DNA from: Sphagnum compactum
Lineage: Eukaryota
Assembly: GCA_965153455.1 (NCBI GenBank)
Contig: OZ234493.1
Location: forward strand, 806,001-870,000
Reading direction: 5' to 3'
DNA: 64,000 nt
Both the position numbers and the translations under genes were made by a program. Under the pieces are notes generated by a model that saw nothing but the letters and a program-made list of their open reading frames with translations, searched no databases and was not told where the DNA came from. Shown one piece after another: positions 39,231 to 45,266 of this stretch; position 1 is the stretch's first letter, and each line of letters opens with the position of its first letter.

Positions 39231-40140
39231 CAACCTATGTTTTTGTTACAATCACTACTAGAAATTTTGTCATATGCAACCACACCCTTTGCAACTGGGA
39301 TGCAACTGCCTGTCGCATGCAACTATTTTTGCAACTATGCCCCCTTTTTGGGCGTGTATGCAACTACGGTGCAACTATGATCGCCTTCATCCCAACCTTT
39401 GGATGATATCTGTGATATATCACCGTATATATTTGATGTATCATCGTATATCATTGATATGCATATACTCATAGTTGCATGTGCAACCAAAATATGCTAA
39501 CTATGGTCTTTTGGTAAGCTAGGTCCACATTTTTTGTAGGCATGTCTAGGATTAGGGTTGCCTACAAAAGACAATCCCATTGATAAGGTTTAGGATATAG
39601 GTGAAAAATAACCTAATCTATTTTGCCACACCTAAAATAGTGTATCTATCTCCAACTTTTAGTAGCTTGCTCCACACACATTTAGAAGACAATTGACAAT
39701 TGAAGATATCAATTTTACTTACAATAGTTTATTATTTGATGAAGCAAAACAATGATTATGTGTATTCAACAAGAAGGTCCAATTAATCCCCTCAAGATTA
39801 CAATATGTGGGTTTGACATGTGGAAATAATCTATTTTATTCCAACAATTATGCAGTACAAGTGAGGGTCTCATGGCACATAGTCCATGTAACGCATGAGT
39901 TGCTTCCAAAGTCAGCCCGGATAGTCCTGATGGGTAGACATGTGACTAAAGCACACATCAGAAACCAAACATGAAAACACATGCTATTGTCCCCCTTAAC
40001 AACCATAACCAAACAATATGCAAACCCTGGAAAGGGTTACCCAAAGAATATCTCAAAATAAGAAGCTTTATCTGAACCCCAACTTCACTCAATACATAAT
40101 TTCTTGCTCATAAATGTTATTACAGCCAACTACAGACTGT

Positions 40141-42385
40141 TTAACCCATGGCATAGTTCTAGTTCCAATTCCGTGTTGTGGCTTCATATTTGGCCCTGTC
40201 AGTCTTGTACATATGAGCGATTTCGAGTACCAGTGGATCGTCAGGATTGGGTCAGTCAACAGCGAGCATACTGAGAGCAAGATCTGCCCCACATATCAAG
40301 ACTTGTTAATTTCCACATCTCAACCATCAAAACCAAGCAAAACTTTAGAGGTCCAGGTCAGTCAGAAAAAATAGGATTAGAATACAAGGTTCAGGGTTAA
40401 GCACAAAGTTCATACCAAATTTGCATGTTAAGTGGTAAGAGAAAAGTATTTCAGATATATGCACTTGAACTGAAATGTGCCAACTAACCAGCACAGATCC
40501 AGAACAGGGCTTTCCGAACACATTAGAGAGCCCATAAGGAACATGAAGTCCAATATTCCTGTTGATCCATCCAAGTTCCAACAATCCCATAACAAAGTAC
40601 TTACTCCTACATTAAAAAACTGGAAGAAACCCTATTCAAAATTGCATAAGGACACTCCAAGTACAAATGTTCCAATAACAACTCTGGAAACACTAGTGAC
40701 CAGCAATGTTCATTGTTGATACACCTATTAAAAGTGGTTGGGGATTGAATACTAACAACCATCTGAAATGCACACCGACATGGATGAGGATGAGCAAAGA
40801 ACCTTAGAAATTGTCAGTGCTCCTTGAGGAGATCCAAGCAAATACTCCCATTGCTATTGATATTAGGATGAAACACCTTCATTCTAAATGCAACCTGCGC
40901 AGTTCCAAGGAACCAAGAACAAAATGATATATCTCTGTGGGTAACAACTTGGTCATATGGACTTCACATGGAATAGTGACCTAAAATGGGCCACCTGGAA
41001 GTCCTTCAACCTCAAACCTGATACAATTTCCCGTAGCACCTACCCACTCTCATAATGTTATGACTGCACACATTGTCATGTTGCCTTCAACTGACTGTTG
41101 TGGGAAATTCTCTGCAATTTCACAGATATGTGGTAAAGTCAGATCCTTTCCATCTGTTTTGGACATGTGGTTCATTGTACCCATTGATTAGACACTGAGA
41201 AGAGTATGTGGTGACATTTTCCATCTCTAGATTACAGGACACAACTTATGGGTCATGGAGAGGTAGTCTGAGAGAAGAGTATTAATAGACATTTCCATCT
41301 GTAGATTGAAGGACAACCGTTATGAAGCATGGAGGGGTAGTCTGGGGGAAGAGTATTAACAGACATTTCCATCTCTAGACTGAAGGACAAACCTTGGGGG
41401 GCTTGAAGGGGTAGTCTGGAAGAAAATGAATCATAACCAACCTAACACCTCCAGCATAGGGACTATCAGGTGGACCCATGATTGTTGCTTGCCAATGGAA
41501 CATATCTTCTGCCACAGGACCTATCACACCCCCCACAACCATAAAGGAAACATCAATTTCACATAACTTCTTGAGAGCAATGGTATGAAAAATAGAGACT
41601 GATTGAAACACTAGACTAGTCATTTCTGCCCAAAGGACCAAAAGCCACAATTAGCAATGAATGCAAAAGCACTCACACAGGATGCTCTTAGAAGACCCCG
41701 GCATTCTTTTTGTGTGCATGCATGAAGGAGGTCAAATGTATTAAGTTAAGGTGCTGTTCTACCAAGAGATCATTACAGATATAACCAGAATATAAAGAAG
41801 AAGAAAAAAACCAGTACTAGAACATGAAAGTCTTGTTCAGCAAGGGTCAAAGGAGAGCATAATGTTGTCCTCATCAAGCATCATGAAACAAAGCTTAGTT
41901 GATGATGCTCCGTGATGGCTGCTCAAAGCACAAATGACAAAACAAAGAAGAAAGAATAGACCACAAATACATAAGCATTGTGAACTAAACCCTAGCAAAA
42001 CAAGCTTGGTTGATGATGTGCCATGATAACTGCTACCTAAAGCACAGTCACAAATGACTGAAGACAGAAGAGACCAAAAGATACATACGGATTTTGAACC
42101 AACTAAACCCTAGAGAATGCAGCACCATGCAAAAAACATTCTCTACACAGTCACAAACTCTTCGCCATATCACGCAGTCACGAGGTGATTAGATACGACC
42201 ATTTCTTCAGCTATCAAGGCAAAAGATTTCACACAGGAAAAGTAATACTTTCAGAACGACAAAAATAGTGGCGAGAGATTGGGACGACGAGGGTAAAAGG
42301 GTGGAGGATGAGCACCCGGCTCTGCATGATGTAGGCGAGTCCTTTCGAAGAACTTTCAACTCTTCGGAATTGTCTTGAAGGCCAT
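40141..42385 (-). pseudogene. Ubiquitin-conjugating enzyme E2 (UBC8/UBC4-5 class) pseudogene, 4 exons with introns retained
   Basis: Exon 1 is frameshifted (ATG GCC TTC AAG ACA ATT CCG AAG AGT TGA; ELKVLRKDSPTSC in another frame). Exon 2 reads [25 protein letters not shown]. Exon 3 reads [16 protein letters not shown], with QWSPA deleted (frameshift). Exon 4 has a frameshift at DPNPDD and a TAG before YAMG*. Confidence 0.92.
41213..41430. repeat. ~75-bp tandem repeat spanning the UBC exon-2 donor
   Basis: gacatt(t)tccatct at 41213, 41289 and 41363; g(a/g)ggtagtctg recurs and matches the exon (PDYP). Confidence 0.8.
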
Positions 42386-42619: not shown

Positions 42620-43375
42620 CCCTCTCTTCCCCAAAATTGTAAACATGACCAACACTTCCCTTGTGCAGCACAACCTCAAACGCTTCAGCCACAACTTCAC
42701 AGTACAGGTATCTTCGCACATTACATCCATCTCCATGGATGGGGAGGGGCTTCCCCTGGCCAAAAGAATGAATGTGGGAATGAGCTTCTCTTGGAATTGG
42801 TTTGGTCCATACACATTATTGCCTCGTCAGGCAACCCATATGAGCGGCCATATGCCATCATCGACATTTCGACACCAGCCTTGGTGGCTGAGTAGGGATT
42901 TGTGGGAAGGAGCTGCGATGCTTCATGGTTTCCAACAATTGCATCAGCCTCAGTCTTTCCATAGACCTCATCTGTGCTCACATGAATGAAGCGGTGGACA
43001 GTGCCTGTCACTTTGCATGCCTCCAGCAACACATGGGTCCCATAGATGTTGTTCTTTGTGAACTCAATACTGTTGCCAAATGAGTTGTCGACATGAGTTT
43101 GGGCGGCAAAGTGCATAATGGTGTCAATACCCTCAGTAATGAGAAGGTAGTTCACAAGATCTGCACTCCCAATGTCACCTTTCACAAACTTGAAATTCTT
43201 GGAGGACTTGGAGGGCAACAGATTCTTCAAGTTGGAGCAATAATCCAACTTGTCCAGCACCACGATCTCGTAATGTGGGTAGTTGCGCATCAGTCTGTTG
43301 GCAACATGAGATGCAATGAATCTTGTTGCACCAGTTATCAAGATGTTTTTGGGAGTGTATGTGGCTTCCCCCCTT
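42620..43375 (-). pseudogene. RHM: RHM (UDP-glucose 4,6-dehydratase / UDP-rhamnose synthase) N-terminal fragment
   Basis: YTPKNILITGATRFIASHV (NAD-binding GAAGFIA mutated), LDKLDYCSNLKNL, HFAAQTHVDNSFGNS, FIHVSTDEVYG, PTNPYSATKAG, YGPNQFQEKLIP, VLHKGSVGHVYN. Frameshifts, no in-frame ATG at the expected start (AAG), and the C-terminal part is absent. Confidence 0.92.
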
Positions 43376-45266
43376 ATGATGATGACCTCCGCTTCTGCAA
43401 ATCTGCCTGATATTATTTAGTAAGAAAAAATTATTCTCTATCAGAATTTTGTGGGCACAACACAAGGGTAACAACAAAGTTCGGTGGAGCCACAGACAGG
43501 AAACAGAGAGGAAGAGTGTAATTTGGACTCCCCTGCAAACAAGGAAGATCAAGACCAAGCTCTCTTTAGTCCTAGTATAATAACCTACAAGTACACCTGC
43601 TTTTTTCTGGTATTGTCTGTCATAGGGACCGAATGTGAGGGACAGCAAAGCGAGCAATATCTGCTGCTCACGATTGCTGATCCACAAGCTCCTCATTTCC
43701 AACTGAAGAGATTATGTGTCGTCATTATGAAAACAGAAAATTTCGAACAATCAAGATGTTCTGAGTGAGGCAAACATCATCAACTAAACAGTGTCAAATT
43801 TCACTGTAGCAACTGGGAACTTTGACCCAACTCATTACACTAAGGCAGATCTCAATTCAGTTGAGCACTTGAGGATAATATCATATATAATGCACGTGTT
43901 GAAATTAGAACTGATCAAACAGTTATCAGATGATTTCAATAAACAAGATCTCTCTATTCTGAAATGAACCTTTATTCATCAATGCTTAAATCCTCACGGT
44001 AAGAGATCTATACATGCTCCAGCCCTCCTAAAATCATGCTTGCTCAATTGATGGTATTCTGTGAGCTACTTGCATTTGCAAACGGAATGATCCAAATGTT
44101 CATTCAGTATAACATTAGTCCTCTTCCAACTGTGTATATGCCTGGAAGGCAACCACGTATATGAATGCAGCCTGTGCCAGAATATATCTCTAAATCCATA
44201 AAGTTCATCACAGCCCTGTTTCTATTGAGTTTCAGCTGTGAAGTGTCCTGACAATGCTGTAAAAGAAATTCCATCAATACTGCTCAACGTTGTTGCATCC
44301 AGCCTATGTGTCGCAGCCATGCTGTTGTTGGCTTCCCACCACCTTAGGCACCACAAATGGTGCCACAGAGTTATCCTACCTCATTACTTCATAGATTTCA
44401 AGTCTTGGATCTTTGGAAAGATTTTTTTTATGGCTACAGCACTCTTGCTGTATCTGATCAGCACCCACCAATCAGCACCAAATATCAAGCAAACATAAGT
44501 CCCTCTTGCATTGTGCACAAAACCCTGCTCGTTCAGCACTTGTCATTCATGAACCTTTGTAATGGAATTATCCTTATTGCTTATCAAGCACTTCAGGCAG
44601 TCATGATGAACATCACCACTTCCCCCAACTGCAACAGGTACCTAGACATTGAAAAAAAATACCAGTTAGCAACAACATAACCACATCATAGCAGTCACAT
44701 AGTGGCACAAGCACATCTTGTTATCCTCCACTGGCTCTTCAACCAATGTCTCTGATATCCCATAAGCCCCAGCTTCAAGAAAACCCTCAAGCTCAGATGA
44801 CCTTTTAGCTCAGCTCAGTTCAGCTCACACACCATGCGCTTTCCTTCTCACACAACACACAACAGACACACACACACAAACGCTAATCAACCCCATTCGC
44901 TAATCATTTGTGATTAGTAGCCTAATTAGGACCTTAATCAGGGCCTTAATTATTCTCTCTCTTGCCAAAGAGAGATTTGTGTTAAGCAAATAATACTGTA
45001 GTAAGATATTAATTTTTTACCACTAGGTGCAACCTGTCTACATTCAGAATCCAAAGGCGGTTAGCACATAAAGAGGATCTCCAAAGGATCTGCAATAGCT
45101 CTAGGAAGCCCATACCAAGAGAACGACTCATAAATATAAACCCTCTAAACATGGGAGCAGATCCTGTAGTGAGTGCCTACAAAGTCAGCTCAAGGACACT
45201 TACCTGTGTGCCTGTAGCTCTTGAAATACGTGTGGCAAGAGCTGCCAGATCCCCATAAGACACTAT

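What the first reader, a model, noticed from the sequence alone, without database searches (positions are those of the whole stretch)
39253..45266. Pack-CACTA-like cargo: RHM and UBC pseudogenes between a CACTA TIR and its transposase
Seen: a CACTACTAGAAA terminus with TGCAACT subterminal repeats at 39253, a 4-exon E2 pseudogene with introns, a truncated RHM, then the transposase 3' end. All three coding units are on the minus strand. Known: CACTA elements can capture genomic, intron-containing host fragments. Inference: both pseudogenes are passengers of this element, possibly on a read-through transcript, and could be an siRNA source against the parent genes.
Basis: partly seen in the sequence, partly recalled or inferred. 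Interest (0 to 1): 0.7.

Follow-up and report, generated by a model that had tools for sequence, protein, structure and literature searches.

The report
Giant gene-carrying moss CACTA transposon
A very large cut-and-paste transposon of a peat moss has picked up broken pieces of several unrelated host genes and spread them to about thirty places while apparently still using its own transposase, and the one gene it copied whole has since decayed at its original site.

Summary
Confirmed and extended. 39253 is the left end of a 41.4-kb CACTA element (TIRs, AAT duplication) ending beyond the window. About 28 copies carry the same TIR-UBC-RHM block; 18 of 20 checked at both ends have matching 3-bp TSDs; measured copies span 23-41 kb. 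The interval holds four donors, not two: UBC (C9), RHM (C17), a GRAS gene (C13) and an unnamed gene (C11), all sense to the transposase and nested in each other. Cargo-less relatives and intermediates record stepwise capture. The cargo is dead. The transposase consensus is intact and stayed under purifying selection after capture (dN/dS 0.37), though 0 of 11 copies examined is intact, so this is not a strict non-autonomous Pack element. Four spliced RNA reads join GRAS to C11 cargo; read-through into RHM or UBC is not shown. Surprise: the UBC donor, intact at capture, is now itself a pseudogene with excess CHG C-to-T changes; silencing by its cargo copies is possible but unproven. Gene capture by CACTA elements is known, and this scan noted similar cargo elsewhere in this genome.

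The parts
39250..39252 (.). 3-bp target-site duplication AAT (repeated after the right TIR at G000:C1:886699-886701)
39253..39266 (+). 14-bp left TIR starting CACTA; perfect inverted copy at the right end, 41,446 bp away, outside the window
39275..39490 (.). Subterminal TGCAAC[TC] repeats
39253..39912 (.). Element's own terminal region, shared at 83-85% with four cargo-less relatives
   Evidence: L041, L043, L044, L045
39948..42625 (-). Captured UBC (E2) gene, 5' UTR to 3' UTR with all three introns; donor G000:C9:6.414-6.417 Mb at 91.5%
42317..42385 (-). UBC exon 1; 1-bp deletion and altered splice donor in the cargo consensus
41393..41520 (-). UBC exon 2
40803..40894 (-). UBC exon 3; 13-bp deletion shared with an older five-copy subfamily
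40141..40283 (-). UBC exon 4
42631..43747 (-). Captured RHM fragment: part of the 5' intron and the first ~252 codons; donor G000:C17:13.442 Mb at 93.9%, intact; 4-bp deletion in all 27 copies and both intermediates; start codon lost in the window's subclade
43747..44246 (-). Captured 3' flank of a GRAS gene (donor G000:C13:0.3175 Mb, 95%)
44243..44794 (-). Captured 5' UTR intron end, exon and first ~25 codons of an unnamed gene (donor one of two tandem copies at G000:C11:11.70/11.75 Mb, 94-95%)
44832..45028 (-). Captured upstream/5' piece of the same C11 gene; about 1.1 kb between the two pieces is replaced by ~37 bp
45022..45245 (-). Captured GRAS exon end plus intron start; its splice donor at 45201 is used in RNA to join the C11 acceptor at 44638
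45267..46127 (-). Transposase exon 3 (DUF4216), 1-bp deletion in this copy
46265..47162 (-). Transposase exon 2 (DUF4218), 1-bp deletion and mutated acceptor in this copy
47319..50163 (.). Further cargo inside transposase intron 1: pieces matching G000:C8:1.849 Mb (47319-47935, 49481-50163; its ORF is antisense to the transposase) and G000:C2:1.811 Mb (47932-49269)
50218..52026 (-). Transposase exon 1 (Transpos_assoc, Transposase_21)
52042..54076 (.). Pieces matching G000:C9:2.046 Mb at 93-95% (52042-52664, 53829-54076), probably more cargo
54077..64000 (.). Interior of the same element, continuing to G000:C1:886698; a divergent second ORF with a weak Transposase_24 match lies in the right arm beyond the window

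Best explanation
The interval is the cargo arm of a giant CACTA family that grew while still supplying its own transposase. SHOWN: a cargo-less form had about 90 bp between the transposase stop and the terminal region; cargo from at least four unlinked genes now sits there; pieces are nested (UBC inside an RHM piece, C11 inside a GRAS piece); all copies descend from single capture events; the cargo is non-functional; copies moved as 23-41 kb units with new TSDs. INFERRED: captures were successive ectopic repair events inside the element (template switching at breaks, DNA not RNA template because introns are kept), about 60% likely; cargo was tolerated because it lies behind the stop codon and in an intron; the lineage stayed autonomous until a recent burst, after which copies decayed. 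The cargo is a neutral passenger that is weakly transcribed and spliced in at least one copy. The UBC donor, redundant among eight close E2 genes, lost function after capture.
For: Copy counts and order. TSDs 18 of 20 and sizes. Cargo-less relatives and intermediates. Donors on C9, C17, C13, C11 with introns matched. Shared lesions (RHM 4-bp deletion in 27 of 27 plus 2 intermediates; UBC 13-bp deletion also in 5 of 5 older copies). All 10 amino-acid differences between RHM donor and cargo consensus fall on the cargo side. Intact 1189-aa transposase consensus. Post-capture branch 16 synonymous, 21 non-synonymous, dN/dS 0.37, p=0.003 against site counts and p=0.049 against private mutations. Junction overlaps of 1-4 nt or short filler, read by eye. 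No terminal or transposase sequence of this family in 10 of 10 donor-region stretches. Chimeric splice 45201 to 44638, 4 reads.
Against: 0 of 11 transposase copies examined is intact; about 14 more were not examined. Differences shared by 3 or more copies within the cargo-bearing clade are 8 synonymous to 20 non-synonymous, no sign of selection during the last splits. The transposase tree rooted on 72%-identical relatives puts the root on the main clade's stem (support 89 for cargo-less plus intermediates), which does not show the cargo-less form as ancestral; the outgroup branch is very long. No spliced transposase read was listed. The capture mechanism itself is not observed.
Confidence: 0.85

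Rival explanations
1. Capture killed the donor: because the whole UBC gene was copied into a silenced transposon family, small RNAs from the cargo methylated the redundant donor gene, and methylcytosine deamination then destroyed it.
For: Donor was intact at capture: 29 synonymous and 1 non-synonymous change shared by donor and cargo against its homeolog. Its three lesions (stop at codon 33, intron-2 acceptor, +1 in exon 4) are absent from the cargo consensus. Donor-side C-to-T in non-coding CHG sites 23 of 187 against CHH 21 of 699, p=2.7e-6; RHM, GRAS and C11 donors 1 of 147 against 10 of 528, p=0.47. Only this donor was captured whole. Fits the published conflict model (10.1101/777037, passages).
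Against: Three further donors (C2, C8, C9:2.05 Mb) also show a CHG excess, 12 of 216 against 18 of 849, p=0.011, so the signal is not unique. The UBC capture is among the older ones (transversions 2.9% against 1.3-3.2%). Donor exon changes are few (3 synonymous, 3 others), suggesting it stayed constrained for a while. Donor-type alleles are transcribed in run X22 (18 of 18 reads at 40456, 9 of 9 at 40231), though an older subfamily shares them. No methylation or small-RNA data; no outgroup for non-captured flanks.
Confidence: 0.25
2. The donor died independently as an ordinary redundant duplicate (tandem pair plus genome-duplication partner), and gained methylation afterwards; capture is coincidental.
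For: Seven other close E2 genes have an open exon 2; tandem partner and both C14 homeologs look intact. Loss of redundant duplicates is common (established knowledge).
Against: Death follows capture in time; several donor lesions sit in CHG context, including the CAG acceptor (read).
Confidence: 0.6
3. These are non-autonomous passengers moved in trans by another CACTA family; the transposase inside is a relic.
For: 0 of 11 copies intact; no selection within the last clade splits; deletion derivatives without transposase exist (C1:14.58 Mb).
Against: Consensus ORF and splice sites are intact while the neighbouring cargo gained frameshifts over the same period; post-capture dN/dS 0.37. Lesions are private or shared by two copies at most.
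Confidence: 0.12
4. The cargo is selected: a truncated RHM or chimeric product, or a decoy against silencing, benefits the element.
For: 16 of 27 copies keep a 258-codon frame from the RHM start; cargo-bearing copies outnumber cargo-less ones found.
Against: That frame is shifted after codon 210 and carries all 10 amino-acid changes; UBC has a stop at codon 10 and a 13-bp deletion. Cargo copies mutate at CHG about four times faster than at CHH, so they were not spared methylation.
Confidence: 0.07

Closest known systems
Pack-CACTA / Pack-TYPE elements (Catoni et al. 2019, PMC6379663; Gisby and Catoni 2022, PMC8903248; passages read)
   Same: CACTA TIRs, 3-bp TSDs, genic DNA from several unlinked loci between the TIRs.
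   Different: Defined there as non-autonomous; elements matching a transposase were classed as autonomous or derived, and the search covered 300-15,000 bp. Here the unit is 23-41 kb and holds a transposase selected after capture. Nested cargo and clean donor loci fit repair-based capture better than fusion of neighbouring insertions.
Tgm-Express1 of soybean (Zabala and Vodkin 2007, PMC1947982; abstract and outline read)
   Same: CACTA ends around fragments of several unrelated genes that keep splice sites and yield chimeric spliced RNAs.
   Different: 5.7 kb, spliced into a host gene's transcript. Here the chimeric splice starts from the element's own transposase 3' flank, and one gene is captured whole.
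Jozin CACTA elements of Chenopodium (PMC8978399; passages)
   Same: Transposase-bearing CACTA elements with the same four domains and captured gene fragments.
   Different: 8-16.5 kb, fragments of about 80-200 bp upstream of ORF1; here over 5 kb of cargo downstream of the stop, nearly 3 kb more in intron 1, and about 28 copies with dated intermediates.
Enlarged En/Spm families of Chondrus crispus, 16-20 kb (as cited in PMC6431247; passages)
   Same: Oversized CACTA elements.
   Different: Enlarged by extra ORFs; this family is up to twice as long and enlarged by dead host DNA.
Epigenetic conflict after gene capture in maize (Muyle et al., 10.1101/777037; passages) and conifers (PMC13477047; passages)
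   Same: Predicts methylation and possible pseudogenisation of dispensable donor genes.
   Different: Those are genome-wide correlations on Helitrons, Pack-MULEs and LTR elements; here one donor can be shown intact at capture and dead now, without methylation data.

Membership tests
CACTA (En/Spm) superfamily | Short TIRs beginning CACTA | tested here: met
   14-bp perfect inverted ends in the window's copy and most others
CACTA (En/Spm) superfamily | 3-bp target-site duplication | tested here: met
   18 of 20 copies match (one read by eye across a mutated TIR), 1 mismatch, 1 damaged left end
CACTA (En/Spm) superfamily | Subterminal repeats at both ends | tested here: met
   9 and 7 motif copies in about 250 bp against 0.15 expected
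CACTA (En/Spm) superfamily | TnpD-type transposase (Transpos_assoc, Transposase_21, DUF4218, DUF4216) | tested here: met
   Transpos_assoc is below its curated cut-off, the other three above
CACTA (En/Spm) superfamily | Second, TnpA-like ORF | tested here: inconclusive
   Transposase_24 at E 0.002 and 0.017, below cut-off, on the opposite strand in the right arm
Pack-CACTA (Pack-TYPE) | Host coding DNA between the TIRs | tested here: met
Pack-CACTA (Pack-TYPE) | Fragments from several unlinked loci | tested here: met
   C9, C17, C13, C11, plus C8 and C2 in intron 1
Pack-CACTA (Pack-TYPE) | Non-autonomous, no transposase | tested here: not met
   Full transposase gene in the element, intact consensus, selected after capture; individual copies are now broken, and one deletion derivative would qualify
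Pack-CACTA (Pack-TYPE) | Capture by fusion of two neighbouring insertions (Catoni model), leaving element traces at donors | tested here: inconclusive
   No family sequence in 10 of 10 donor-region stretches of 7-10 kb; small footprints would not be seen
Epigenetic-conflict donor/cargo pair | Cross-mapping 24-nt siRNAs and donor methylation | not testable with these tools
   Only the mutational proxy was measured

The most novel reading that the evidence does not exclude
An autonomous CACTA lineage in a moss grew to about 40 kb by serial nested captures, and its whole-gene capture of a redundant ubiquitin-conjugating gene silenced and killed the donor in trans: a datable case of a transposon deciding which duplicate is lost after genome duplication.
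Probability: 0.25. Interest if true: 0.75.

Novelty: new variant of a known kind. Interest (0 to 1): 0.52.

Why it matters
It shows that a cut-and-paste element can stay self-mobilising while carrying many kilobases of host DNA, at sizes that the 15-kb Pack search would miss. The cargo-less, intermediate and full forms give a readable history of how cargo is added, which bears on the unsettled capture mechanism. The dead UBC donor beside three intact donors of the same element makes the 'capture can silence and kill a dispensable donor' prediction testable at one locus with built-in controls.

Tried and rejected
Syntenic RHM-UBC neighbours: rejected, donors on C17 and C9. Separate short element at 39253: rejected. 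C14:4.537 Mb as UBC parent and C15/C11/C4/C2/C6 RHM genes as parents: rejected, only exon-level 72-88% matches. UBC donor being itself transposon cargo: rejected, it is the partner of intact C14:4.537 Mb in paired tandem arrays and has no element sequence nearby. RNA-templated capture: rejected, introns kept; the gap in the C11 piece does not follow splice sites. 'All cargo is sense': true for 4 of 4 pieces behind the stop, not for the C8 piece in intron 1; the C2 piece's gene is unresolved. 'CHG decay unique to the UBC donor': weakened by three more donors. The L040 rows (second tandem C11 gene) were left out of the pooled 1 of 147 as near-duplicates of L039. Rooting with distant transposases gave an unreliable root. 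RNA contigs X1 and X2 span the RHM-UBC junction but also cover introns and an unspliced transposase, and look like one data set filed twice: not counted as expression. Most X22 reads on UBC and RHM exons are 90-95% alike and come from paralogs. Pfam on 97 ORFs of the rest of the element gave one hit above cut-off, GIY-YIG. Paper searches for Bot1/SLL3 and for 'large CACTA' with '30 kb' returned 0. Look-ups of earlier notes by sequence and by nearby place returned nothing.
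Full report
OBSERVATION. The window is G000:C1:806001-870000 of a 382-Mb assembly. The best named relatives of one donor protein are Sphagnum proteins, so the host is taken to be a peat moss.

THE ELEMENT. The terminus has at least 40 matches in the genome (40 of 130 candidates scored). The RHM piece matches 31 places at 94% or more: 28 copies, 2 older intermediates and the donor. UBC exon 2 occurs in 29 element copies. The stretch from cargo into transposase (43700-46300) is contiguous in 25 places. Of 27 copies whose left arm I fetched, 26 hold TIR, UBC and RHM, and 22 hold all eight pieces scored. 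The window's copy ends 41,446 bp away with a perfect 14-bp inverted repeat and an AAT duplication; six others measure 23.2-27.4 kb, and coordinates give about 29.8, 39.3 and 41.1 kb for three more. Of 20 copies read at both ends, 18 have matching 3-bp duplications, 1 mismatches and 1 has a damaged left end. I aligned the two other 39-41 kb copies only over their first 28 kb, and 58780-61238 is private to the window's copy, so the shared mobile unit is nearer 39 kb. Copies differ by 0.8-4.6% in the UBC cargo.

THE CARGO. Donors were found with introns and UTRs: UBC at C9:6.414 Mb (91.5% over 2.6 kb), RHM at C17:13.442 Mb (93.9% over 1.1 kb), a GRAS gene at C13:0.317 Mb (91% and 95%) and an unnamed gene in tandem at C11:11.70/11.75 Mb (94-95%). 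All four are sense to the transposase. More cargo fills transposase intron 1, from C8 and C2, taking it from 232 bp in an intermediate to 2.4-3.05 kb. Four cargo-less relatives have about 90 bp between the stop region and the terminal region. Two intermediates already have the RHM-UBC junction but not the GRAS and C11 pieces, and one keeps further RHM sequence behind UBC, so UBC was inserted into an RHM piece; likewise C11 sits inside the GRAS piece. Five older copies hold the 3' half of UBC with the same 13-bp deletion, so there was one UBC capture. Junctions show 1-4 nt overlaps or short filler (read by eye). No sequence of this family lies in 10 of 10 donor-region stretches. Inference: serial repair-type captures from DNA templates inside the element, rather than fusion of neighbouring insertions as proposed in PMC6379663 (passages). 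Against the order of events: a tree rooted on distant transposases does not place the cargo-less forms outside, but its outgroup branch is very long; the order rests on the retained and replaced parts of the 90-bp spacer and on the greater decay of cargo-less copies.

CARGO IS DEAD, THE TRANSPOSASE WAS NOT. All 27 RHM copies and both intermediates share a 4-bp deletion near codon 210, and all 10 amino-acid differences from the donor lie on the cargo side; one hits the aspartate of the TDE motif that I recall as catalytic. The UBC consensus has a 1-bp deletion in exon 1, an altered donor site and a 13-bp deletion. The transposase consensus of 11 copies is an open 1189-codon, three-exon frame with canonical splice sites, although 0 of 11 copies is intact. 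Fixed differences from cargo-less relatives are 34 synonymous to 31 non-synonymous, against 50 to 138 among private mutations (p=2.3e-4). On the branch after RHM-UBC capture they are 16 to 21 (dN/dS 0.37; p=0.003 against site counts, which ignore transition bias; p=0.049 against private mutations). Within the recent clade the ratio is 8 to 20, showing no selection. I read this as a lineage that stayed autonomous for part of the time it carried cargo.

EXPRESSION. In one polyA data set (X22, about 12% read), 3274 reads were laid, only 21 at 99% or more; most exon reads come from paralogs. Four reads from 2 starts splice the GRAS donor site (45201) to the C11 acceptor (44638) in the transposase's direction, with 63 nt on the shorter side, which reaches the element's own sequence just behind the stop codon. 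The two genes lie on different contigs, so this RNA must come from an element copy; 3 of 3 reads at 45261 carry the non-window allele, so not from this copy. No joint into RHM or UBC and no spliced transposase read was listed. This parallels Tgm-Express1 (PMC1947982, abstract).

THE DEAD DONOR. The C9 UBC gene is one of a tandem pair whose partners on C14 match reciprocally, as expected from the genome duplications described for Sphagnum (PMC9946827, passages). It shares 29 synonymous and 1 non-synonymous change with the cargo against its homeolog, so it was intact at capture. It now has a stop at codon 33, a lost intron-2 acceptor and a +1 in exon 4, none in the cargo consensus. Its non-coding donor-side C-to-T changes are 23 of 187 CHG sites against 21 of 699 CHH (p=2.7e-6), like the element copies (4.9% against 1.1%), while the RHM, GRAS and C11 donors show 1 of 147 against 10 of 528 (the duplicate C11 gene was left out). 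But three other donors also show an excess (12 of 216 against 18 of 849, p=0.011), the capture is comparatively old, and donor-type alleles are transcribed in X22, from the donor or the older subfamily. Silencing by the cargo is the prediction of the conflict model (10.1101/777037, passages; PMC13477047, passages; review PMC13317346, passages); I give it 25% against ordinary loss of a redundant duplicate.

COMPARISON AND NOVELTY. It is a CACTA element by four of five features, the TnpA-like ORF being weak. It works like a Pack-CACTA but fails the non-autonomous criterion, and lies outside the 300-15,000 bp searched in PMC8903248 (passages). Transposase-bearing CACTA elements with small captures are described (PMC8978399, passages), and 16-20 kb is called significantly enlarged in PMC6431247 (passages). 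I found no description of gene-carrying CACTA elements in mosses, nor of CACTA units of this size; the library lacks most subscription papers, I recall 20-23 kb CACTA elements in soybean and Triticeae without a call, and I opened no supplements (repeat tables of PMC9946827 may bear on this). Earlier unchecked notes of this scan describe similar cargo trains and a 22-kb CACTA element elsewhere in this genome. Verdict: real, well supported, a new variant of a known kind; interest 0.52, carried by the size, the retained transposase, the readable capture series and the testable dead donor.

Noticed in passing
L115 (G000:C1:738000-747999): An 8.6-kb inverted duplicate (99.5%) of this element's right end plus at least 2.7 kb of its flank lies about 100 kb upstream, fused to a direct copy of window 52232-53650 (99.2%): a recent element-linked rearrangement or an assembly artefact.
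   Followed up: partly
window 58780-61238: 2.46-kb segment absent from the three closest copies and an intermediate; contains an ORF at 60174-60719 without Pfam match. Probably a later nested insertion.
   Followed up: no
L052:1567-2559 and L059:3711-7796: Second multi-exon gene in the right arm, divergent from the transposase, with a weak Transposase_24 match; divergent layout is unusual for CACTA as I recall it.
   Followed up: partly
L051:9100-9938: Broken GIY-YIG nuclease ORF inside the element, above Pfam cut-off; origin not traced.
   Followed up: no
window 57438-57978: Third copy of the C8-derived piece that also occurs twice in transposase intron 1: cargo duplicated within the element.
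   Followed up: partly
window 41218-41439: Three 74-bp tandem units that repeat the end of UBC exon 2 into intron 2; present in the donor gene too.
   Followed up: partly
L114 (G000:C1:14.58 Mb): Deletion derivative that keeps TIR, UBC and RHM but lacks the transposase: a strict Pack-CACTA born from this family.
   Followed up: partly
window 10211-11761: Broken PIF1 helicase ORFs on the minus strand, Helitron-like.
   Followed up: no
window 15924-21806: Exons of an aldo-keto reductase (minus) and a nicotinate phosphoribosyltransferase (plus), probably ordinary host genes left of the insertion.
   Followed up: no
window 38350-39204: Degenerate ~350-bp tandem repeats immediately left of the insertion site.
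   Followed up: no
L052 right arm / C14 copy 26356-27313: Array of ~110-bp tandem repeats near the right terminus in all copies compared.
   Followed up: no
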